A stretch of 35,705 nt of DNA. Origin: a virus. Of this stretch, positions 1,265-8,524 are shown piece after piece. The position numbers and the translations under genes were made by a program. The stretch lies in the IMG/VR virus record IMGVR_UViG_3300045988_017993; one strand, 5' to 3'. The notes under the pieces were generated by a model. That model saw nothing but the letters and a program-made list of their open reading frames with translations, did not search any database and was not told the origin of the DNA. How positions within the stretch are numbered: the first letter of the stretch is position 1; each line of letters starts with the position of its first letter.

Positions 1265-3286
1265 TTGGCAGAATTTTGGAGTAATAATGATAGAGGCTAT
1301 AGGATAAGGTTGTGGGTTGACCAGGTTAGCCAAGACAAAGTAGCTAATACCAGTCAGGTCAGATTTCAACTAGCACTGCTAAATACGACTACGACTTTTG
1401 CTCAATATCAATGTAACGCTTATATCGAGTTTGAAGGTCAAAGATTGAATTGGTCAGGTTCACCTAGTATGCTAGGGTGGTATCAAACAATTCCATTGAT
1501 AGATCAAACAGTTACCATTAATCACGATTCAGACGGTAAAAAGACTTTATCTGTTTCAGCGCAGTTTAACGGGTCTGGTGGTTGGAGCCCTCGTACATTA
1601 ACAATCAGCGGCATCTCATTAAAACTAACCGACATTCCACGGTTAAGCTCTGTAAGCGTTGATGCTGGTACTATTGGTAGCTCAGTCACTATTAACATCA
1701 ACCGTCAAAGCTCTAGTTTTAAGCACACAGTACGTTATGCTTGGGCAAATAAGTCAGGGACTATTGCAAGTAATGTAGACACATCTACAGCATGGACTAT
1801 TCCACTTGACTTTGCTAACGACATCCCAAACTCGGAAACGGGTACAGGAACAATCTACGTAGATACCTACTCAGAAGGTACCATGATAGGGACACAGTCA
1901 GCTACGCTAATAGCAAGTGTGCCAGCTAGCATGAAACCAACTTTCGAAGGAGTTTCTTTGTCAGACTCTAACACAGCCGCTCAGAACGTGGTACGAAACG
2001 CTAACACATTCATCCAGACTCTCTCTAACATCAAGGTATCCTTCAATGGTGCAAGTGGGTCTTATGGCTCAAATATCACGCGTTACCATGCTGAGATAGT
2101 CGGTAAGAACCAAACTACTAATGTTAACGGTGGCACGTTGGGTATCATGAACTACAACGGAACCATCACAGTCAGGGCAAGTGTATCTGATAGCCGTGGT
2201 CGTTGGTCTGATCCTAGAGATGTCTCTGTCACAGTGCTTGAGTATTTCGCCCCATCGCTTAGTTTTAGTGTCGTTAGAACTGGATCAACATCTAGTACAC
2301 TAGAAGTTATAAGAAATGCACGGATAGCACCTTTGATTGTTAATGGTATTCAAAAAAATACCATGAAATTAACTTTCAAGGTGTCGCCTTATGGAAAAGA
2401 TGATTACACAACAGACACTGGTCCCGCCTCTGGTGAATGGCTAAGTATTTCAAGTCTAGTCAATTCACCTGCTAATTTGGCTGGTGAATATGCAGCTAAT
2501 AAATCGTGGCAAGTTTTGGCGATTTTAGAAGACAAATTCACATCAACAAGCTTTAAGGCACAAGTTCCTGTTGAAAGTGTTGTGCTGTCCTATGACCGTG
2601 ATGGTCTTGGTATTGGTAAAATACGCGAGTTTGGAGCGCTTGACGTAAAAGGTGACATCTATGCAAACAACAGCCCAATCCAGCAATATCAGCTAACCAG
2701 TAATAACGGATCTCCAAAATGGGTAGATGGAAAACCTGTCGCTAAGAATGCAAATTTGATAGACCAACCTGGACAGTATTACCTTGACCCATCGGCTCCA
2801 GGAAACCCAAGCGGTCAATGGGGCTATTTATTTCACTACAGCAATTACGGTAAGAATACAAATGGTCGTAAAGAAGCCATTCAAACTTTTTGGGGGAAAA
2901 ATGGTCAGCTTTTTTTCAGACATCACAGATGGTCTTTTATAATCAACGATTGGGAACCGTGGAAGGAATTTACAAGAAACGACCACCCAAATTTAATTAA
3001 CACAGGATGGAAACCAGCAGGATATGAAGGCAGCTTCTACAAACGTGTCGGAGATGTGTTGACAGTTAAATATAGCTTTACAGGAAATGGTGGAGATGTT
3101 ATGCTCGCTAATTTACCTCCAGAAGTATTTAAAGCACCTCAATCCTATATGTTTACTATTTCTGGTTGGTCTATTTTTGCTGATACACAAGTCCATGTCC
3201 AAGTTGATGTGGGAACTGGAATGTTTAATGCTATGCAAACTAGAAATGGTATAGATTATAAAGGTCAAATCACAATAATGCTATAA
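1265..3286 (+). CDS. Large distal tail / baseplate protein, probable receptor-binding component (673 aa)
   Basis: TTG start lies 6 nt after AGGAGG (1253..1258). The gene sits directly after the antireceptor gene and before the lysis cassette. The N-terminus MAEFWSNNDRGYRIRLWV resembles siphophage tail proteins. Confidence 0.7.
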   Translation: MAEFWSNNDRGYRIRLWVDQVSQDKVANTSQVRFQLALLNTTTTFAQYQCNAYIEFEGQRLNWSGSPSMLGWYQTIPLIDQTVTINHDSDGKKTLSVSAQFNGSGGWSPRTLTISGISLKLTDIPRLSSVSVDAGTIGSSVTININRQSSSFKHTVRYAWANKSGTIASNVDTSTAWTIPLDFANDIPNSETGTGTIYVDTYSEGTMIGTQSATLIASVPASMKPTFEGVSLSDSNTAAQNVVRNANTFIQTLSNIKVSFNGASGSYGSNITRYHAEIVGKNQTTNVNGGTLGIMNYNGTITVRASVSDSRGRWSDPRDVSVTVLEYFAPSLSFSVVRTGSTSSTLEVIRNARIAPLIVNGIQKNTMKLTFKVSPYGKDDYTTDTGPASGEWLSISSLVNSPANLAGEYAANKSWQVLAILEDKFTSTSFKAQVPVESVVLSYDRDGLGIGKIREFGALDVKGDIYANNSPIQQYQLTSNNGSPKWVDGKPVAKNANLIDQPGQYYLDPSAPGNPSGQWGYLFHYSNYGKNTNGRKEAIQTFWGKNGQLFFRHHRWSFIINDWEPWKEFTRNDHPNLINTGWKPAGYEGSFYKRVGDVLTVKYSFTGNGGDVMLANLPPEVFKAPQSYMFTISGWSIFADTQVHVQVDVGTGMFNAMQTRNGIDYKGQITIML

Positions 3287-3301
3287 AAGGAGATATAAAA
3301 C

Positions 3302-3712
3302 ATGAAATTTGAATATGATTCAAAGTCAAAAGAATATGACGCAAGCGGTGCAGCGTACGCCACAAAAGTAGTTTTGAAAAACCGAGATGGTGCTTACGTC
3401 CCTGTCTTTTTGCCAGTCGATAAAATCGACTTATCAAACACTGAACTACTGAATGAAGCACTAGAGGTTATTTATCAAGAAAATTTCCCACAGCGTGCGG
3501 AAAATGAAAAATTTAATGAACTTGGCGAGAAAATCAAAGAGTACGAAGCATTAAGCAAAAAAGCTACAGAAACTATCGCAAAGATGGAAGAACAAATAAA
3601 GAAGCAGCAAGATGCATCAAACACCGCACAAGAAACATTGATGAGTATTATTGAAAAACTTAATGAGAAAAAATTGTTGAGTGATGAAGACTTGACTGAT
3701 AATAAAGAATAA
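3302..3712 (+). CDS. Hypothetical protein with a coiled-coil C-terminus (136 aa), conserved position between tail and lysis genes
   Basis: ORF with an upstream GGAG. No domain recognised with certainty. Confidence 0.6.
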   Translation: MKFEYDSKSKEYDASGAAYATKVVLKNRDGAYVPVFLPVDKIDLSNTELLNEALEVIYQENFPQRAENEKFNELGEKIKEYEALSKKATETIAKMEEQIKKQQDASNTAQETLMSIIEKLNEKKLLSDEDLTDNKE

Positions 3713-3892: not shown

Positions 3893-4216
3893 ATGGTAAA
3901 TCAAACAGAGCCAGATTTGATGAACTGGCTTATTACCGTTATTCTTCCTATTTCTATTTCAAGTGCGAGTTTTTATTTTTCAAGCCAGACACGTGCCTCT
4001 CGATTAGAACACCGAATCACTAAATTAGAGGTCGTTGACCATGAAATCGAGAAAATTATTAAAAACCATAATGATCGTCTTGACAAATATCAAGAAGAAC
4101 AAAAAATAATTCTAGCTCTCGTCCAACGTATGGACCATCTTAATGAGAACGTTGTTGAGCTAAAAGGAAATATTGAAGAAGTTAAAAAATTAGTAGATCG
4201 AAACTTGAGAGGATAA
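3893..4216 (+). CDS. Membrane-anchored coiled-coil lysis-cassette protein (XhlA-like / holin accessory, 107 aa)
   Basis: AGGAGG lies upstream. One N-terminal TM segment (WLITVILPISISSASFYF) is followed by a heptad-rich region. The gene is immediately upstream of the holin. Confidence 0.55.
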   Translation: MVNQTEPDLMNWLITVILPISISSASFYFSSQTRASRLEHRITKLEVVDHEIEKIIKNHNDRLDKYQEEQKIILALVQRMDHLNENVVELKGNIEEVKKLVDRNLRG

Positions 4217-4223
4217 TAATAAA

Positions 4224-4466
4224 ATGATTAATTTTAAACTACGCTTAAAAAACAAAGCTACTCTTGTAGCACTTATCTCAGCAGTATTCCTTATGTTGCA
4301 ACAATTAGGGCTTGAAATTCCACACAATATCCAAGACGCTGTAAATACATTCATTGCAATTTTGGTTATCCTCGGAATCGTGACAGACCCTACCACTAAA
4401 GGAATCGCTGACAGCGAACGAGCATTGAACTATGATGTACCACTAAACGATAAAAAGGAGAAATAA
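4224..4466 (+). CDS. Holin (phi-LC3-family-like, 80 aa, two TM segments)
   Basis: Small size, two hydrophobic helices, a charged C-terminus, and a position directly upstream of the lysin. Confidence 0.8.
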   Translation: MINFKLRLKNKATLVALISAVFLMLQQLGLEIPHNIQDAVNTFIAILVILGIVTDPTTKGIADSERALNYDVPLNDKKEK

Positions 4467-4467
4467 A

Positions 4468-5313
4468 ATGAGCGTACCACAATCCATTGTTAATTGGTTT
4501 GTTATTCACCGCAATCTGCTTACCTACTCAATGTTTGGCTCACGGAATGGCTCAGACGGTACAGCTGACTGCTCTGGTTCTATGTCTCAAGCCCTAAAAG
4601 ACGCAGGCATTCCTATCCAAGGGTTGCCATCTACTGTCACTCTTGGTCAACAACTTGCTAAAAATGGATTTTATCGTGTAAGTATTAATCAGGATTGGGA
4701 CGCCTTGACAGGAGATATCGTAATGATGTCGTGGGGTGCTGACATGTCACAATCTGGTGGTGCAGGTGGTCACGTTGGTGTTATGATGGATAGCGTAAAC
4801 TTTATTAGTTGTGATTATTCAACTCAAGGAGCAGTAGGCAAAGCTATCAATACGTATCCTTGGAATGATTACTATGCAGCAAACAAACCAAATTATATCG
4901 AAGTTTGGCGATATGCTGAATCAGCACCACAAACGAATAACCAAGCTAATACTGCGGTAGTGCCACAACAAAAGGCTTACTATGAAGCAAATGAAGTCAA
5001 ATATGTTAACGGCATTTGGCAAATCAAATGTGACTATTTAAGCCCTATCGGGTTTAATTATTTGGAAAACGGAATCCCGGTTTCAATGGTTAACTGGGTA
5101 GATAAGGACGGTAACGACCTTCCAGACGGAGCTGACCAAGATTTTAAAGCTGGAATGTACTTTAGTTTTGCCGGTGATGAAAACAACATTACAGACACAG
5201 GAGAAGGCGGCTATTATGGTGGCTATTACTACCGACGTTTCGAGTTTGGGCAATTCGGTACAGTATGGCTCTCTTGCTGGAATAAAGATGATTTGGTAAA
5301 CTACTACCAATAG
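4468..5313 (+). CDS. Endolysin (Amidase_5-type peptidoglycan hydrolase N-domain plus C-terminal cell-wall-binding domain, 281 aa)
   Basis: The N-terminal motif YSMFGSRNGSDGTADCSGSMSQAL is typical of streptococcal phage lysins. The gene is uninterrupted, with no intron. Confidence 0.85.
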   Translation: MSVPQSIVNWFVIHRNLLTYSMFGSRNGSDGTADCSGSMSQALKDAGIPIQGLPSTVTLGQQLAKNGFYRVSINQDWDALTGDIVMMSWGADMSQSGGAGGHVGVMMDSVNFISCDYSTQGAVGKAINTYPWNDYYAANKPNYIEVWRYAESAPQTNNQANTAVVPQQKAYYEANEVKYVNGIWQIKCDYLSPIGFNYLENGIPVSMVNWVDKDGNDLPDGADQDFKAGMYFSFAGDENNITDTGEGGYYGGYYYRRFEFGQFGTVWLSCWNKDDLVNYYQ

Positions 5314-5394
5314 ACCACGCAAACTAAAAAATAAAAAAGGAGTATATCACCTCCCCTCACACTGCAGTAGGGATACCATGGCAGTAGTGGTCGA

Positions 5395-5422
5395 AGCCTC
5401 AGCATTGTGCTGGGGCTTTTTT
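5395..5422 (+). terminator. Rho-independent terminator of the late/lysis operon
   Basis: A 9-bp stem AGCCTCAGC / GCTGGGGCT (one G-U pair), a 5-nt loop, then TTTTTT. Confidence 0.8.
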
Positions 5423-5424
5423 AT

Positions 5425-5453
5425 TTGACTTATAAATGATAATTTTATAAAAT
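5425..5453 (+). promoter_or_regulatory. Sigma-A-type promoter (TTGACT, 17-nt spacer, TAAAAT)
   Basis: Hexamers at 5425..5430 and 5448..5453 with a 17-nt spacer. No ORF follows. Confidence 0.55.
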
Positions 5454-5459
5454 GTAATT

Positions 5460-5581
5460 GGATAACCTAGATACAATTTATCTAGTGCAAAAGGTAAAAG
5501 ACTGATTAGGTTCAGCGCCCTATTGCTTGCGCACACACAAGCATAAGGGAACGTTTTGTTGGGGGCTAAGACCACCCTTTT
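5460..5581 (+). ncRNA. Candidate small RNA unit 1, carrying conserved box A (5499..5523)
   Basis: No ORF. It has a perfect 7-bp hairpin CTAGATA/TATCTAG (5467..5485), box AGACTGATTAGGTTCAGCGCCCTAT, a hairpin at 5518..5549 (TGCTTG/CAAGCA core), and ends in CCCTTTTT. The 3' end is uncertain. Confidence 0.35.
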
Positions 5582-5652
5582 TGATATAATATACCTATAT
5601 CAATGGCTTCCCACGCATACGCGCAGATACGTTCTGAGGGAAGTTTTTTATT
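5582..5652 (+). ncRNA. Candidate small RNA unit 2 (extended -10 promoter plus terminator hairpin)
   Basis: TGATATAAT at 5582..5590 matches the extended -10 consensus TGnTATAAT. A CTTCCC/GGGAAG stem (5607..5612 / 5638..5643) with a structured loop is followed by TTTTTTATTT. No ORF. Confidence 0.4.
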
Positions 5653-5726
5653 TGCTTTGTTTTGATAGAAATGCTACTATATTAATGGATACAGTTAAAA
5701 GCTGAGTCTTCGATAAACTCTCTCTC

Positions 5727-5760
5727 ACCCTGACTTTAATTAGTCAGGGTTTTTGTTTTG
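5727..5760 (+). terminator. Strong rho-independent terminator ending an ORF-less unit 3 (about 5655..5760)
   Basis: A 9-bp perfect stem ACCCTGACT / AGTCAGGGT, loop TTAATT, then TTTTTGTTTTG. Confidence 0.8.
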
Positions 5761-5793
5761 CAAAAAAAATATATAATTTTTTATCAAAAACTG

Positions 5794-5822
5794 TTGACAA
5801 ACTATCATCTATGATATATAAT
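5794..5822 (+). promoter_or_regulatory. Consensus promoter of the acr operon (TTGACA, 17-nt spacer, TATAAT) with an upstream A/T tract
   Basis: Hexamers at 5794..5799 and 5817..5822 with an exact 17-nt spacer. GAGAGG RBS and ATG 5855 lie downstream. Confidence 0.8.
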
Positions 5823-5854
5823 GTATACATAAGATAAAGAGAGAGGTAAACAAA

Positions 5855-6406
5855 ATGAAAATCAATAATGACATCAAAGAGCTAATTTTGGAATATGTAA
5901 GTCGCTATTTTAAATTTGAAAACGACTTCTACAAATTGCCAGGCATCAAATTCACTGATGCAAATTGGCAAAAATTCAAGAATGGAGATACTTCCATCGA
6001 GAAGATGGGGGCAGCACGAGTAAATGCCATGCTTGACTGCCTATTCGACGATTTTGAGCTTGCTTTTATTGGCAAGGCTCAACAAGAATACTATTCGGAT
6101 AATTCCTTGAAATTGAACATGCCATTTTACGCTTACTATGACATGTTCAAAAAGCAGCAACTTCTAAAATGGCTTAAAAATAACCGTGATGATGTCATCT
6201 GCGGAACTGGTAGGATGTACACAGCAAGTGGTAATTACATTGCTAACTCTTATTTAGAGGTAGCGTTAGAATCTAGCCGTCTGGGTAGTGGCTCTTACAT
6301 GCTTCAAATGAGATTCAAAAACTATTCAAAAAGTCAAGAACCTATTCCATCTGGTCGCCAGAATCGACTTGAATGGATTGAAAACAATCTTGAGAATATT
6401 CGATAA
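5855..6406 (+). CDS. acrIIA6: Anti-CRISPR protein, AcrIIA6-like (183 aa)
   Basis: The 183-aa length, the sequence MKINNDIKELILEYVSRYFKFENDFYKLPGIKFTDANWQKF...RQNRLEWIENNLENIR, and the locus (between the lysin and the cro-like gene of a virulent S. thermophilus phage) match my recollection of AcrIIA6. Not verified by alignment. Confidence 0.6.
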   Translation: MKINNDIKELILEYVSRYFKFENDFYKLPGIKFTDANWQKFKNGDTSIEKMGAARVNAMLDCLFDDFELAFIGKAQQEYYSDNSLKLNMPFYAYYDMFKKQQLLKWLKNNRDDVICGTGRMYTASGNYIANSYLEVALESSRLGSGSYMLQMRFKNYSKSQEPIPSGRQNRLEWIENNLENIR

Positions 6407-6518
6407 ACTACATCGGCATACTGCTGACTGATGATGATAAACGTGCTATACTTGGTATTAAAGTTTAAAACTACGTGCAAAAACTGAATCACGTTAAAAG
6501 CTGGGAGGAGAACAAAAA

Positions 6519-7190
6519 ATGTGGTTATTACTATCCTTAGTAGGATTTTCAGGTTATATTGTTTCTATTGGTGCTTTACTGTGGTCAGTTATCAAAAAAA
6601 ATAAAGATCTACGCAAAAAATCGCTTATCGGTGGACTTCTTGCCATGATTATGTTTTTCATAGGTGCTTTGATTTCACCTACAGATAAATCTGAATCGTC
6701 TGTAGAAACTGCTAAAACTGAACAAACTTCTTCATCAAAAAAGAAAAACGCTAAGACTTCTTCTAGCAGTAAGAAAGAAGCAAGTTCATCTTCAAAAACG
6801 GTTTCTAGCACAGAAACAAGTTCAACTTCAAAAACTTATGACGACGCCGCAAATACAGCATTCGCCTCTGAATTAGACACTAAAATCAACGATGTTTTAA
6901 AGCAAAGTGGTATCACAGATTCGTTTGCTGTCATGCCAAACAGTTCAGTTTTAATAGATGTGGTTGTCCCACAAGATTATAAATACTTACCAAATTCACA
7001 AATTCAACAATTAGCAGATACACTTCTTTATGCTAAAGAAAATTTTTTCCAAGAATGGAACGCAAAACCAGAAAACAATTATAATGAAACATACGGGCCT
7101 AGACTTTACGTAAAATCACCAGACGGTACTACCCTTGCCAAAGAATCTTTCTTTGGCGGTAAAATGAAACGTGTAATAGACAACAAATAG
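6519..7190 (+). CDS. Membrane protein of unknown function (223 aa), co-transcribed with the acr gene
   Basis: GGGAGGAG RBS. Two N-terminal TM helices, a Ser/Thr/Lys-rich linker and a C-terminal domain of about 115 aa. There is no terminator between 6406 and 6519. Confidence 0.7.
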   Translation: MWLLLSLVGFSGYIVSIGALLWSVIKKNKDLRKKSLIGGLLAMIMFFIGALISPTDKSESSVETAKTEQTSSSKKKNAKTSSSSKKEASSSSKTVSSTETSSTSKTYDDAANTAFASELDTKINDVLKQSGITDSFAVMPNSSVLIDVVVPQDYKYLPNSQIQQLADTLLYAKENFFQEWNAKPENNYNETYGPRLYVKSPDGTTLAKESFFGGKMKRVIDNK

Positions 7191-7235
7191 CCCCACACTC
7201 TCAAGCTTCGACAATCATGAGTGCAGGGGCTTTTA
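7190..7235 (+). terminator. Terminator of the acr operon
   Basis: GCCCC..CACTC / GAGTG..GGGGC interrupted stem (10 bp), 18-nt loop, then TTTTA (short T run). Confidence 0.55.
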
Positions 7236-7286
7236 TGTTAAGATGTATAAGAAAATCAGAAATGTATATTATATTTCAAAAAATAG

Positions 7287-7315
7287 TTGACAACGTATAG
7301 TATATAGTGTAGAAT
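7287..7315 (+). promoter_or_regulatory. Promoter (TTGACA, 17-nt spacer, TAGAAT) of small RNA unit B
   Basis: Hexamers at 7287..7292 and 7310..7315. The upstream tract is CAAAAAATAG. Confidence 0.7.
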
Positions 7316-7321
7316 TATTTA

Positions 7322-7422
7322 AAGTGTTAGACTGATTTAGTTCAGCGCCCTATATAAGTGCGTGCACAAAAAGGGAATTCATATAAAAAAAGTCGGCTAT
7401 TTTAGTCGACTCTTTTTTTTTT
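7322..7422 (+). ncRNA. Candidate small RNA of about 100 nt, carrying conserved box B (7329..7353)
   Basis: It lies between a near-consensus promoter and a strong terminator (8-bp stem 7391..7398 / 7404..7411, then a T10 run). There is no ORF on either strand. Box AGACTGATTTAGTTCAGCGCCCTAT is 23/25 identical to 5499..5523. Confidence 0.55.
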
Positions 7423-7555
7423 ATGTCATGTAAACAGCAGTATAGCGTTTTCTATTATGTTATCGATGTCGTGTCGTTTCTCTAACTTTTTCAAATGTTG
7501 GAAACTTTTCTGAGAGATTGACAAAAAAATATTTAATTTTTTTTTATAAAAACAG

Positions 7556-7584
7556 TTGACAAAGTTATGTAAGTAATTTAAAAT
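7556..7584 (+). promoter_or_regulatory. Early promoter (TTGACA, 17-nt spacer, TAAAAT) upstream of the cro-like gene
   Basis: Hexamers at 7556..7561 and 7579..7584. An A-rich UP-like tract lies upstream. Confidence 0.7.
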
Positions 7585-7744
7585 AGTTTTCGTAAGTTAA
7601 AGAGTTAGTCAAAAACTAAGTCAAAAAAATAAATAGCTTTGGCGAGCGATTAAGTTGATAGATATAAGGTTTTTAACTATTCATTCATTTTAAAAGTGTT
7701 TTACTAACTACTTAACTTGATTAAGTAAAAAAGGAGGAAATCTC

Positions 7745-7954
7745 ATGAGCAAACAACACCTTAAGTGGATTGAGCTTGTAAAAGAGCGAATTGAGGAGCG
7801 TGGATGGTCACAGACGGATTTGGCTATCGTCGTAGGTGTTACCCCATCGGCCATTACACATCTTTTAAAAGAAGGCAAAGGAAGTGACGACTTGAAGCTT
7901 CGTGTTAACAAGAAATTGCGAATCAACGAGCCGTGGGAAAAATTCGAGGATTAG
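7745..7954 (+). CDS. Cro-like HTH (XRE family) DNA-binding protein (69 aa)
   Basis: AAGGAGG RBS. HTH segment WSQTDLAIVVGVTPSAITHLL. Confidence 0.75.
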   Translation: MSKQHLKWIELVKERIEERGWSQTDLAIVVGVTPSAITHLLKEGKGSDDLKLRVNKKLRINEPWEKFED

Positions 7955-8178
7955 AAGAACGTGCCAACATCATTTATGGTATTCAAAGCAAGAGTGCTTA
8001 TGAAATAGGGAAACAACTTGCCAAAGCTCAAAAAGAGCTTTCGACTAGAGGGTACGGATGTTTCGAAGAGTGGTATAGGAGTTTGGGATTTAAAACAACA
8101 AAAGCATACGAATATATCAATCACTTCAAATTCGTTTCTTCGCAAAACGAAGAAACAAAAAGAGATTATAGCTCTTGA
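7933..8178 (+). CDS. Hypothetical protein, DUF3102-like N-terminal region (81 aa); start uncertain
   Basis: GTG start without an RBS, overlapping the previous ORF by 22 nt in the -1 frame. The segment AYEIGKQLAKAQKEL...GCFEEWYRSLGF resembles DUF3102 phage proteins. Confidence 0.45.
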   Translation: MGKIRGLEERANIIYGIQSKSAYEIGKQLAKAQKELSTRGYGCFEEWYRSLGFKTTKAYEYINHFKFVSSQNEETKRDYSS

Positions 8179-8320: not shown

Positions 8321-8524
8321 ATGACAGAAACAGTTCCAAAAATTACAATCAAAGAACTCCGAGCACGTCACAATTTGACACAAGAGGAATTTGCTAAAAG
8401 TGTTGGTACGTCAGCACAAACAGTTAGTGCATGGGAGAAGAATGTACTTTCTATTTCTCCTAAAAACATGGTAACCATTTGTAAAAAATACAACCTTCAA
8501 TCGTCTGATTTGTATGGCTTTTGA
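8321..8524 (+). CDS. HTH XRE-family transcriptional regulator (67 aa)
   Basis: GAGAGGAGG RBS. The segment LTQEEFAKSVGTSAQTVSAWEKN is a classic Cro/CI-type HTH. Confidence 0.8.
   Translation: MTETVPKITIKELRARHNLTQEEFAKSVGTSAQTVSAWEKNVLSISPKNMVTICKKYNLQSSDLYGF

What the first reader, a model, noticed from the sequence alone, without database searches (positions are those of the whole stretch)
5794..7235. Anti-CRISPR operon: AcrIIA6-like gene plus an uncharacterised membrane protein under a perfect consensus promoter
The 183-aa product of 5855..6406 matches my recollection of AcrIIA6. That is the St1Cas9 (CRISPR1) inhibitor described from virulent S. thermophilus phages, and the match covers length, sequence and genomic location. 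A textbook TTGACA, 17-nt spacer, TATAAT promoter drives it.

With no intervening terminator, it is followed by a 223-aa protein with two TM helices, a Ser/Thr/Lys-rich linker and an unassignable C-terminal domain. The operon then terminates at 7190..7235. There is no adjacent HTH Aca-type gene inside the operon.

The co-transcribed membrane protein is a candidate second counter-defence or superinfection-exclusion factor.
Basis: partly seen in the sequence, partly recalled or inferred. Interest (0 to 1): 0.75.

Follow-up and report, generated by a model that had tools for sequence, protein, structure and literature searches.

The report
Known anti-CRISPR plus relic exclusion-slot gene
This dairy-phage segment carries an ordinary copy of the known Cas9 inhibitor AcrIIA6, followed by an uncharacterised surface-anchored membrane protein whose gene comes from the prophage slot that normally holds "keep other phages out" (superinfection-exclusion) genes.

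Summary
ORF 5855..6406 is a full-length AcrIIA6 allele, 91.8% identical to the crystallised D1811 protein (E=1e-112), and all 13 published Cas9/sgRNA contact residues are unchanged. A 12/12 consensus promoter lies at 5794-5822. No terminator precedes the 223-aa gene (6519..7190). A stem-loop terminator follows at 7189-7239.

The Acr is already known. The module is 99.9% identical to phage P7631, and near-identical phages annotate the gene as "Acr-like".

The second protein has a TM hairpin, a disordered Ser/Thr/Lys stalk and a confidently folded C-domain of about 115 aa with no Pfam or PDB match. In every temperate relative examined it sits between the cI repressor/M78 protease and the integrase. 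Its 40-nt upstream and 48-nt terminator flanks match those around ltp of TP-J34 (a proven exclusion lipoprotein) and orf203 of Sfi21. A 37-nt relic of the cI gene lies just upstream.

It is therefore a third, unrelated cargo of the streptococcal sie slot, retained in a virulent phage and now co-directional with acrIIA6. The pairing is facultative: 24 of 50 carriers lack AcrIIA6, including the CRISPR-sensitive phage D5842. Superinfection exclusion is the best-supported function. A second anti-CRISPR role is not supported. Interest is modest.

The parts
5794..5822 (+). Sigma-70-type promoter TTGACA-17-TATAAT (P_acr). It drives the accessory-gene cluster that follows the lysin gene.
   Evidence: 12/12 consensus match. 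The promoter, 5'UTR, RBS and start codon are conserved in Sfi21, P0095, SW19, CHPC577 and a temperate contig, whichever gene comes first.
5803..5830 (.). Two short palindromes inside or abutting the promoter: TATCAT-CT-ATGATA (5803-5816) and ATGTATACAT (5821-5830). They are possible operators; this is speculative.
   Evidence: Read directly from the sequence (I16). The spacer palindrome is conserved in 4 of 5 relatives aligned; L014 differs at one base and Sfi21 differs entirely. No functional test.
5855..6406 (+). acrIIA6: a 183-aa inhibitor of St1Cas9 (CRISPR1), full-length allele.
   Evidence: phmmer against PDB 6eyy/6eyx: E=1.4e-112 over residues 1-183. 91.8% identical to the D1811 protein, with none of the 13 contact residues changed (PMC8632846). 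100% identical to the P7633 allele.
6424..6460 (+). 37-nt relic of the 3' end of a cI-like repressor gene. It now carries a candidate internal promoter, CTGACT-17-TATACT with an upstream TG (6424-6452).
   Evidence: 92% identical to the 3' ends of Sfi21 orf127 and the TP-J34 cI-repressor homologue (orf4). Promoter-like site. In the temperate phages the corresponding -10 reads TATCCG.
6464..6503 (+). Conserved 5' flank of the 'sie slot', including the stem-loop ACGTG-N12-CACGT (6473-6494). The RBS GGGAGGAG follows at 6503-6510.
   Evidence: 97.5% identical over 40 nt to the sequence upstream of ltp in TP-J34 (annotated there as stem_loop) and upstream of orf203 in Sfi21.
6519..7190 (+). Gene for a 223-aa membrane protein: TM hairpin (2-25, 29-51), disordered Ser/Thr/Lys stalk (about 56-99), and a folded alpha/beta C-domain (105-223) predicted to face outside. 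Candidate superinfection-exclusion protein.
   Evidence: AF2 model: C-domain pLDDT above 90, linker below 50. No Pfam, PDB or fold match. Homologues lie between cI/M78 and the integrase in prophages and temperate phages.
7189..7239 (+). Intrinsic terminator: an 11-bp bulged stem, an 18-nt loop and a U-tract. It is the conserved 3' flank of the sie slot.
   Evidence: dG -18.9 kcal/mol, z=-3.3. 91.7% identical over 48 nt to the annotated terminator after ltp in TP-J34 and to the sequence after orf203 in Sfi21.
6418..6426 (.). Left copy of the 9-bp inverted repeat ATACTGCTG, which bounds the segment that is inverted relative to CHPC577.
   Evidence: (I5). The CHPC577 junction reads rc(win 7479-7444) + ATACTGCTG + win 6427 onward.
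7435..7443 (.). Right copy (CAGCAGTAT) of the 9-bp inverted repeat.
   Evidence: The reciprocal junction in CHPC577 has diverged.

Best explanation
The window is a virulent Moineauvirus-type S. thermophilus phage genome. After the lysin terminator, a strong early promoter (5794-5822) transcribes acrIIA6.

**AcrIIA6 (known mechanism).** The AcrIIA6 dimer binds the WED/PI region of St1Cas9-crRNA and allosterically lowers DNA binding. This lets the phage plate on CRISPR1-immune hosts.

**Read-through (inferred).** Transcription probably continues across a 112-nt spacer that has no terminator. A weak internal promoter at 6424-6452 may add to it. The transcript then covers a second gene and stops at the hairpin 7189-7239.

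**Origin of the second gene (shown by context).** It was not born as an acr partner.
- It is the cargo of the lysogeny-module slot that lies between the cI repressor/M78 metalloprotease and the integrase in temperate streptococcal phages.
- In TP-J34 this slot holds the exclusion lipoprotein Ltp. In Sfi21 it holds the orf203 'immunity region'.
- In this lineage int, M78 and nearly all of cI were lost. The cassette was kept with its own flanks. It now points the same way as acrIIA6; CHPC577 keeps the prophage-like opposite orientation.

**Function of the second protein (inferred by analogy).**
- It inserts as an N-out/C-out hairpin, because the KKNKDLRKK loop should be cytoplasmic.
- It displays a novel 115-aa domain on a flexible Ser/Thr/Lys stalk at the outer face of the membrane.
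- Most likely it blocks genome entry of superinfecting phages.
- In a virulent phage this would protect the infected cell from competitors during the latent period.
For: **AcrIIA6**
- E=1e-112, 91.8% identity, full length, contact residues intact.
- Near-identical phages annotate the gene as 'Acr-like'.

**Promoter and terminator**
-.

**Slot origin**
- Full-length homologues (67-77% BLASTP identity; about 90-95% over the aligned TM and C-domain, the difference being linker-length indels) sit as HTH_3 - Peptidase_M78 - X - integrase, all on one strand, in three S. thermophilus prophage places and one temperate contig.
- C-domain homologues (32-49% identity) hold the same position in SA01, phiZJ20091101-1, Javan249 and pSY22.
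- The same arrangement appears in 4 of 6 genome loci.
- The flanks are shared with ltp of TP-J34 and orf203 of Sfi21: 40 nt at 97.5% and 48 nt at 91.7%. A 37-nt cI relic lies upstream.
- The window has no int, cI, M78 or ant.

**Surface display**
- AF2 model.
- Family members use a TM hairpin, a single TM or a lipobox (LSAC, P0144), all of which place the C-domain outside.

**Known Sie features**
- Sie proteins are typically anchored by an N-terminal helix or a lipid (PMC3952083).
- ltp homologues are already known in lytic-looking phages such as SW18 (PMC10320759).

**Not an Acr partner**
- 24 of 50 carriers lack AcrIIA6, including CRISPR-sensitive D5842.
Against: - There is no experimental datum for this protein family, and no sequence or fold similarity to Ltp, orf203 or any solved structure. 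The Sie function therefore rests on position and architecture alone.
- dN/dS between close alleles is not low: 0.45 to above 1. Against one prophage allele the C-domain shows 15 nonsynonymous changes to 1 synonymous (p=0.12). This fits either an arms-race surface protein or relaxed constraint.
- Co-transcription with acrIIA6 is inferred only from the absence of a terminator.
- That orf203 confers superinfection immunity rests on the GenBank label 'immunity region' and on my recollection of Bruttin et al. 1997. No paper in the library could confirm it.
Confidence: 0.6

Rival explanations
1. The membrane gene is a hitch-hiking remnant of the lost lysogeny module. It has no role in the lytic cycle of this virulent phage: either its function matters only in lysogens, or it is slowly decaying.
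For: - It lies in the 'lysogeny replacement' region next to a 37-nt cI relic (PMC5601072).
- It is present in only about 50 of about 395 streptococcal phage records.
- dN/dS is 0.45 to above 1 between close alleles.
Against: - The ORF is intact in all 50 phage records and in more than 100 distinct metagenomic variants. Only in-frame changes in linker length are seen.
- A good RBS is retained.
- Independent deletion end-points (a cI relic here and in CHPC577; an M78 relic in phage 128 and the prophage-like versions) all spared the gene and its flanks.
- It now sits behind a 12/12 promoter.
Confidence: 0.2
2. The membrane protein is a second counter-defence factor that works with AcrIIA6 in a dedicated anti-defence operon. 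It would be an Acr-associated protein or an inhibitor of another host defence.
For: - It is co-directional with acrIIA6, with no terminator between them, under one strong promoter.
- Co-occurrence in the phage collection is somewhat above chance: 26 with both, out of 50 and 121 carriers in about 395 records (odds ratio 2.9, p=9e-4). Records are duplicated and phylogenetically non-independent.
Against: - Its native position is the lysogeny operon, on the opposite strand to the acr region and separated from it by the integrase.
- Half of its carriers lack AcrIIA6. D5842 carries it yet is fully CRISPR1-sensitive.
- The predicted extracytoplasmic domain cannot reach cytoplasmic Cas9.
- No PADLOC or Acr-family match.
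Confidence: 0.07
3. It is a surface protein with another envelope role. One option is masking or modifying the phage receptor, which would stop progeny from adsorbing to lysed-cell debris (like T5 Llp). Another is modulating lysis timing, given that it sits next to the holin and lysin genes.
For: - Membrane-anchored with an outward-facing domain.
- In this window it lies about 1.2 kb downstream of the lysin gene.
- The weak, non-significant fold resemblances are to periplasmic ring-building, pilotin and GerMN domains (E of 0.09 or higher).
Against: - In temperate relatives it is transcribed with the repressor, not with the lysis genes.
- None of the fold hits is significant.
- Receptor masking would itself be a form of superinfection exclusion, so this rival overlaps with the main explanation.
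Confidence: 0.12

Closest known systems
AcrIIA6 of S. thermophilus phage D1811 (PDB 6EYX/6EYY; complexes 6RJ9, 6RJA, 6RJG)
   Same: - Same length (183 aa), alignable end to end, 91.8% identical.
- All listed Cas9/sgRNA contact residues are retained.
- Same genomic place, downstream of the lysin gene in a Moineauvirus.
   Different: - 15 substitutions, all outside the listed contact residues.
- In D1811 the acr follows a conserved small gene (PMC6060171). Here it is the first gene after the promoter.
Ltp of temperate phage TP-J34 (superinfection-exclusion lipoprotein that targets the tape-measure protein of incoming phages)
   Same: - Occupies the same cassette slot, with the same 40-nt upstream stem-loop and the same terminator.
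- In temperate relatives the slot lies between the M78-like regulator and int.
- Anchored at the outer face of the membrane through a Ser-rich spacer.
   Different: - No sequence similarity.
- Anchored by a TM hairpin rather than a lipid in this allele.
- The C-domain is a single alpha/beta fold rather than two HTH-like repeats.
- No functional data.
orf203 ('immunity region') of temperate phage Sfi21
   Same: - Same slot and same flanks.
- Same architecture: N-terminal TM helices, a Ser-rich linker, and a C-domain of about 90-115 aa.
   Different: - Unrelated in sequence: BLASTP E=3.8, hhalign probability 4%.
- orf203 gives weak 2TM/SLATT-like hits that the window protein lacks.
Lactococcal Sie proteins (the Sie2009 type) and early-expressed exclusion proteins of virulent phages (T4 Imm/Sp, T5 Llp)
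   Same: Small membrane-anchored proteins encoded between int and the repressor (lactococcal), or expressed early by lytic phages (T4, T5), that block DNA entry. This comparison comes from my own knowledge and from PMC3952083.
   Different: No homology was detected. The only 'superinfection exclusion' PHROG hit (phrog_4980, E=0.007) covers the TM and low-complexity part only.

Membership tests
AcrIIA6 | Full-length sequence homology to the experimentally characterised and crystallised AcrIIA6 | tested here: met
   E=1.4e-112 over residues 1-183 of 183 against 6eyy/6eyx. 168/183 identical. PHROG 4964 E=3e-124.
AcrIIA6 | Residues that contact St1Cas9 WED/PI and the sgRNA are conserved (T118, R120, Y122, A124, N127, Y128, A130, G146, S147, Q151, G167, R168, N170) | tested here: met
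   The residue list is from PMC8632846. The window allele differs only at positions 5, 15, 45, 47, 71, 77, 78, 81, 87, 93, 116, 132, 142, 156 and 160.
AcrIIA6 | Not the truncated form, which blocks only spacer acquisition | tested here: met
   The ORF is 183 aa and aligns through the C-terminus. Truncated alleles are described in PMC9120153.
AcrIIA6 | Restores plating of a CRISPR1-targeted phage / inhibits St1Cas9 | not testable with these tools
   Requires expression in a CR1-immunised S. thermophilus strain.
Canonical acr-aca operon | An adjacent gene for an HTH anti-CRISPR-associated (Aca) regulator in the same transcription unit | tested here: not met
   There are only two ORFs between the promoter and the terminator, and the second has no HTH. 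HTH_3 genes at 7745 and 8321 lie behind separate promoters. AcrIIA6 has its own cryptic HTH (PMC6060171).
Ltp-type Sie lipoproteins | Sequence homology to Ltp (lipobox signal peptide plus two HTH-like repeat domains) | tested here: not met
   tblastn of TP-J34 Ltp against the window finds nothing at E of 1e-3 or better. The N-terminus is a TM hairpin with no lipobox.
Ltp-type Sie lipoproteins | Located in the lysogeny-module slot between the metalloprotease-like regulator and int, bounded by the slot's stem-loop and terminator | tested here: met
   Flanks are 97.5% (40 nt) and 91.7% (48 nt) identical to those of ltp. Prophage homologues lie in M78 - X - int.
Sfi21 orf203 immunity protein | Sequence or profile homology to orf203 | tested here: not met
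   BLASTP E=3.8. hhalign probability 4%.
Superinfection-exclusion proteins (a functional class) | Membrane-anchored, with the functional domain outside the cytoplasm | tested here: inconclusive
   Predicted only. The TM hairpin has a strongly basic loop, so the N- and C-termini should be outside by the positive-inside rule. Relatives carry a lipobox or a single TM. There is no experimental topology.
Superinfection-exclusion proteins (a functional class) | Blocks DNA entry of incoming phages without affecting adsorption | not testable with these tools
   Needs efficiency-of-plating, adsorption and DNA-injection assays.
TcdC ('TcdA-E operon negative regulator') and 'putative protease', the names carried by database relatives | Significant match to a family model that would support the name | tested here: not met
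   No Pfam or NCBIfam model reaches its cut-off for the window protein. No family covers the C-domain in any of the 41 relatives scanned.

The most novel reading that the evidence does not exclude
The 223-aa protein founds a new, third family of streptococcal superinfection-exclusion proteins, with a novel extracellular alpha/beta domain on a Ser/Thr/Lys stalk. Virulent dairy phages have captured it from prophages and express it early together with AcrIIA6. One promoter would then deliver both counter-defence (against Cas9) and exclusion of competing phages during lytic infection.
Probability: 0.35. Interest if true: 0.5.

Novelty: new member of a known kind. Interest (0 to 1): 0.33.

Why it matters
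The Acr part adds nothing new. AcrIIA6 is present in about a third of S. thermophilus phages (PMC6060171, PMC12322248), and this exact module is already in GenBank.

The useful result concerns the second gene.
- One short, flank-conserved slot in streptococcal phages carries at least three unrelated membrane-anchored cargos: Ltp, orf203 and this family.
- Virulent phages keep the slot after losing integrase and repressor.

If the protein does exclude other phages, two things follow.
- It would be a new Sie family with a new fold, relevant to phage-rotation and starter-culture strategies in dairies.
- It would be an example of lytic phages using prophage-derived exclusion against competitors.

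The gene is small and easy to clone into the same pNZ123 / S. thermophilus assay system already used for the Acrs.

Tried and rejected
**Family and structure searches on the membrane protein.**
- Sequence searches against PDB, Pfam, NCBIfam and PADLOC gave only sub-threshold hits to the low-complexity or TM parts.
- Foldseek of the AF2 model against PDB found nothing below E=0.09. The resemblance to ring-building, pilotin and GerMN domains was rejected as non-significant.
- BFVD returned only uncharacterised phage proteins.

**Homology to known slot cargos.** Homology to Sfi21 orf203 and to TP-J34 Ltp was rejected.

**Non-coding flanks.** An Rfam scan of 5200-8000 at E of 1 or lower gave only chance-level hits.

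**Literature.** Searches for orf203 found no accessible paper. No paper describing this protein family was found.

**Genome-context scan.** The search for related loci with the full family alignment failed because no conserved stretch was available. It was repeated with a C-domain alignment and returned only 6 loci.

**Simple reciprocal inversion between the 9-bp inverted repeats.** Only the left junction in CHPC577 is clean. The other has diverged, so I do not claim a programmed invertible element.

**dN/dS.** There are too few substitutions for a firm conclusion.

**Whole-window identity.** The whole window is not P7631. It is a mosaic, with the best match at 93% identity over 79% of the query. 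Only the 5700-7300 module is 99.9% identical to P7631.
Full report
**1. What is there**

The window is a complete, permuted genome of a Streptococcus thermophilus siphophage of the Moineauvirus type.
- It is 39% G+C.
- Its best whole-genome matches are about 93% identical over 79% of the query.
- The module 5700-7300 is 99.9% identical to phage P7631, and 99.1-99.6% identical to the SWK/SW phages and 9A.

Upstream lie the holin gene (4224..4466) and the lysin gene (4468..5313), followed by a strong terminator at 5393-5419.

Downstream are two small HTH_3 (Cro-type) genes (7745..7954 and 8321..8524) and then the replication module (AAA_24, helicase).

tblastn with the Sfi21 integrase, cI-like repressor, M78-type regulator, antirepressor, orf203 and AcrIIA5, and with TP-J34 Ltp, finds nothing in the window. 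The genome therefore has the 'lysogeny replacement' layout of virulent S. thermophilus phages (PMC5601072).

**2. Checking the observation**

| Feature | Coordinates | Evidence |
|---|---|---|
| Promoter TTGACA-17-TATAAT | 5794-5822 | 12/12, best in the region |
| RBS and acr ORF | 5839-5847; 5855..6406 (183 aa) | |
| Intergenic spacer, no terminator | 6407-6518 | no terminator-like site; folds no better than shuffles, z=-0.15 |
| Second ORF | 6519..7190 (223 aa) | two hydrophobic helices; 55-aa linker with 19 Ser, 10 Thr, 10 Lys |
| Terminator | 7189-7231 hairpin plus UUUUAUGUU | dG -18.9 kcal/mol, z=-3.3 |

The consensus scan missed the terminator only because its loop is 18 nt.

**3. The first gene is AcrIIA6**

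- phmmer against all PDB chains returns only AcrIIA6 (6eyy/6eyx, plus the Cas9 complexes 6rj9, 6rja and 6rjg) at E=1.4e-112 over residues 1-183.
- Identity to the D1811 protein is 168/183, or 91.8%.
- The 15 differences avoid all 13 residues listed as contacting St1Cas9 or the sgRNA (PMC8632846).
- The allele is identical to that of P7633.
- AcrIIA6 is found in 121 records at 80% coverage or better in the phage collection. Published prevalence is 35% (PMC6060171) and 36% (PMC12322248) of S. thermophilus phages.

This part of the finding is correct and already known. Near-identical phages annotate the gene as 'Acr-like protein'.

The absence of an Aca gene is typical for this Acr. Hynes et al. 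found no HTH neighbours but did find a cryptic HTH inside the AcrIIA6 structure.

The promoter, 5'UTR, RBS and start codon are conserved in temperate Sfi21, in a temperate metagenomic contig, and in P0095, SW19 and CHPC577. This holds whether the first gene is acrIIA6 or a gp111-like gene. It is the general expression platform of the post-lysin accessory (lysogenic-conversion) region.

**4. The second gene: structure**

No Pfam, NCBIfam or PADLOC family, and no PDB sequence, matches the protein above noise. PHROGs places it in phrog_7237, function unknown.

An exhaustive HMMER search with the C-domain against 1.84 billion cluster representatives finds only 45 clusters at E of 1e-3 or better. 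Nearly all are proteins of 150-260 aa.

Alignment of 41 members shows one architecture:
- a membrane anchor: a TM hairpin, a single TM, or a lipobox (LSAC in P0144);
- a low-complexity Ser/Thr-rich stalk of variable length;
- a conserved domain of about 115 aa with the motif PQDxKY ... IQxxAD ... W..ENGY ... P.LY ... DGT.LA.E ... M.

AlphaFold2 with this alignment gives the following:
- helices 2-25 and 29-51;
- a disordered stalk at 56-99 (pLDDT below 50);
- a confident alpha-beta-beta-alpha-alpha-beta-beta-beta domain at 105-223 (pLDDT 90-98).

Foldseek finds no solved structure below E=0.09. In BFVD it finds only uncharacterised phage proteins.

The loop between the helices (KKNKDLRKK) is strongly basic. 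By the positive-inside rule both termini, and therefore the C-domain, face outward. This is an inference. It agrees with the lipobox and single-TM variants.

**5. The second gene: origin**

This is the informative part.

*Position in S. thermophilus prophages.* Full-length homologues score 67-77% identity by BLASTP, because the linker differs in length. They are about 90-95% identical over the TM and C-domain. They occur in integrated S. thermophilus prophages in the order HTH_3 repressor, Peptidase_M78, X, integrase, all on one strand (L012, L013, L015). They also occur in a temperate contig (L014) that carries AcrIIA6 on the other side of the integrase.

*Position in other streptococci.* C-domain homologues (32-49% identical) hold the same position in temperate phages SA01, phiZJ20091101-1, Javan249 and pSY22. 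The same is true for 4 of the 6 loci found in GTDB species genomes.

*The slot is a known one.* It is exactly the slot of ltp in TP-J34 (int, ltp, metalloproteinase-motif gene, cI homologue; PMC3952083 Table 3; GenBank record). It is also the slot of orf203, labelled 'immunity region', in Sfi21.

*The flanks are shared.*
- Window 6464-6503 is 97.5% identical to the 40 nt upstream of ltp (annotated stem_loop) and upstream of orf203.
- Window 7182-7229 is 91.7% identical to the 48 nt downstream of both. In TP-J34 this stretch is the annotated terminator.
- Window 6424-6460 is a relic of the 3' end of the cI-like repressor gene.

*The cargos are unrelated.* The window protein shows no similarity to orf203 (BLASTP E=3.8; hhalign probability 4%) or to Ltp.

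So one flank-conserved slot carries at least three non-homologous, membrane-anchored, stalk-plus-domain proteins. Ltp is an experimentally proven exclusion protein that targets the tape-measure protein of incoming phages (PMC3952083, PMC10320759). orf203 is recorded as an immunity determinant.

**6. How the present 'operon' arose**

- In temperate phages the acr region (lysin, gp111, acr, attP) and the sie slot (cI, M78, sie, int, on the opposite strand) are separate, convergent units.
- CHPC577 keeps that convergent orientation after losing int, M78 and cI.
- In the window the segment of about 6418-7443 is inverted relative to CHPC577.
- The left CHPC577 junction falls exactly at a 9-bp sequence (ATACTGCTG) that is present as an inverted repeat at both ends of the window segment. 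The other junction has diverged.
- Other virulent phages have different arrangements under the same promoter:
  - cro-like HTH then the membrane gene (128, D5842, MM25);
  - acrIIA6, cro-like HTH, then the membrane gene (SW19, P0095);
  - cro-like HTH, a 145-aa ORF, then the membrane gene (P3681).
- Phages 128 and D5842 retain the last 63 nt of acrIIA6 as a relic.
- Three nearly identical promoter contexts (AAAAAC[A/T]GTTGACAA at 5784-5801, 7276-7294 and 7546-7563) are plausible recombination points for this shuffling.

Counts in the phage collection:

| Category | Records |
|---|---|
| Full-length membrane gene | 50 |
| AcrIIA6 at 80% coverage or better | 121 |
| Both genes | 26 |
| Streptococcal phage records in total | about 395 |

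The odds ratio is 2.9 (p=9e-4). This is inflated by duplicate and related records. The pairing is therefore facultative.

D5842 is the CRISPR-sensitive indicator phage of Hynes et al.. It carries the membrane gene but no Acr. This argues against any anti-CRISPR1 activity of the membrane protein.

**7. Transcription**

Read-through from P_acr is plausible, since there is no terminator and the conserved stem-loop at 6473-6494 has no U-tract.

The cI relic also carries CTGACT-17-TATACT with an upstream TG at 6424-6452. In Sfi21 and TP-J34 the corresponding -10 reads TATCCG. The same improved sequence precedes the gene in CHPC577, where the gene faces away from all its neighbours and must have its own promoter.

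The gene may therefore be expressed both as part of the acr transcript and on its own. All of this is inferred.

**8. Selection**

Close alleles differ mainly by in-frame changes in linker length.

Pairwise dN/dS against the window allele is about 0.45-0.6 for most comparisons, but rises to about 1.1 (prophage L012) and 2.3 (P3681, on only 9 substitutions). Against prophage L012 the C-domain shows 15 nonsynonymous changes to 1 synonymous (binomial p=0.12). The numbers are too small to separate diversifying selection from relaxed constraint.

Against decay:
- the ORF is intact in every phage record and in more than 100 metagenomic variants;
- independent deletions spared the gene.

**9. Verdict**

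- The AcrIIA6 call is right, but it is a rediscovery.
- The 'anti-CRISPR operon' is an evolutionary juxtaposition rather than a functional pair.
- The downstream protein is best explained as an uncharacterised superinfection-exclusion candidate, a new cargo family of the streptococcal sie slot retained by a virulent phage. Confidence is about 0.9 for the origin and about 0.5 for the function.
- Database names for its relatives ('TcdA-E operon negative regulator', 'putative protease') have no support.
- Interest is modest. It lies in a cheaply testable new Sie family with a new fold, and in the cassette-slot picture, not in the Acr.

Noticed in passing
window 5425-5755 and 7287-7415: Two ORF-less, transcription-unit-like stretches flank the acr/membrane unit. 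The first runs from promoter TTGACT-17-TAAAAT (5425-5453) to terminator 5727-5750, about 300 nt (RNA fold z=-3.5). The second runs from TTGACA-17-TAGAAT (7287-7315) to terminator 7391-7411, about 100 nt (z=-2.0). Both contain the 25-nt motif AGACTGATTWRGTTCAGCGCCCTAT (5499-5523 and 7329-7353). These are the only two copies in the window, against 0 expected. There is no Rfam match. They may be phage small RNAs.
   Followed up: partly
window 5784-5801, 7276-7294, 7546-7563: Three consecutive strong promoters (12/12, 11/12 and 11/12) share the context AAAAAC[A/T]GTTGACAA behind an A/T-rich upstream tract. They head the acr unit, the small ORF-less unit and the cro-like gene. They look like the break-points at which cassettes are shuffled between phages.
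   Followed up: partly
L003 (phage 128) 3094-3156; L010 (D5842) 2594-2656: Acr-less phages 128 and D5842 keep the last 63 nt of acrIIA6 (window 6345-6407) fused directly after the -35 box (window 5795). They descend from an AcrIIA6 carrier by a deletion of about 550 bp that also removed the -10 box.
   Followed up: partly
window 6418-6426 and 7435-7443; L002 (CHPC577) 3950-5140: A segment of about 1 kb, holding the membrane gene and the small ORF-less unit, is inverted relative to Piorkowskivirus CHPC577. One junction falls exactly at a 9-bp inverted repeat (ATACTGCTG / CAGCAGTAT). The reciprocal junction in CHPC577 holds about 73 nt of unrelated sequence.
   Followed up: yes
window 5803-5816 and 5821-5830: Two palindromes, TATCAT-CT-ATGATA in the promoter spacer and ATGTATACAT abutting the -10 box. 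The first is conserved in most relatives. It could be an operator, conceivably for the cryptic HTH of AcrIIA6. This is untested, and AT-rich palindromes arise easily by chance.
   Followed up: no
window 6719-6835: The Ser/Thr/Lys stalk is encoded by imperfect 24-nt direct repeats (D3). It varies in length between alleles (total protein 204-250 aa), always in frame. The window allele also has a private L11S change in TM helix 1.
   Followed up: partly
L014 (Logan contig SRR27050521_113) 5162-7407: A temperate-phage contig carries AcrIIA6 followed by 132-aa and 140-aa ORFs between the lysin gene and the integrase. It also has the membrane-protein homologue in the sie slot. This shows the ancestral, separated arrangement of the two genes in one genome.
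   Followed up: partly
L011 (P3681) 3066-3503: In P3681 a 145-aa ORF of unknown function sits between the cro-like gene and the membrane gene, in the place where Acrs occur in other phages. It is not AcrIIA5 (no BLASTP hit). It could be another accessory or anti-defence cargo.
   Followed up: no
L017 (satellite Javan410) 2612-3247: A C-domain homologue also occurs in a Streptococcus parauberis phage satellite. There it lies next to cadmium-resistance genes, not beside a recognisable repressor or integrase.
   Followed up: no
window 5855..6406 against the local Pfam copy: The local Pfam-A copy returns no family for AcrIIA6. However, the precomputed annotations in the look-up of encoding contigs list PF28149:AcrIIA6. 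A negative Pfam result from this copy is therefore not evidence that no family exists.
   Followed up: yes
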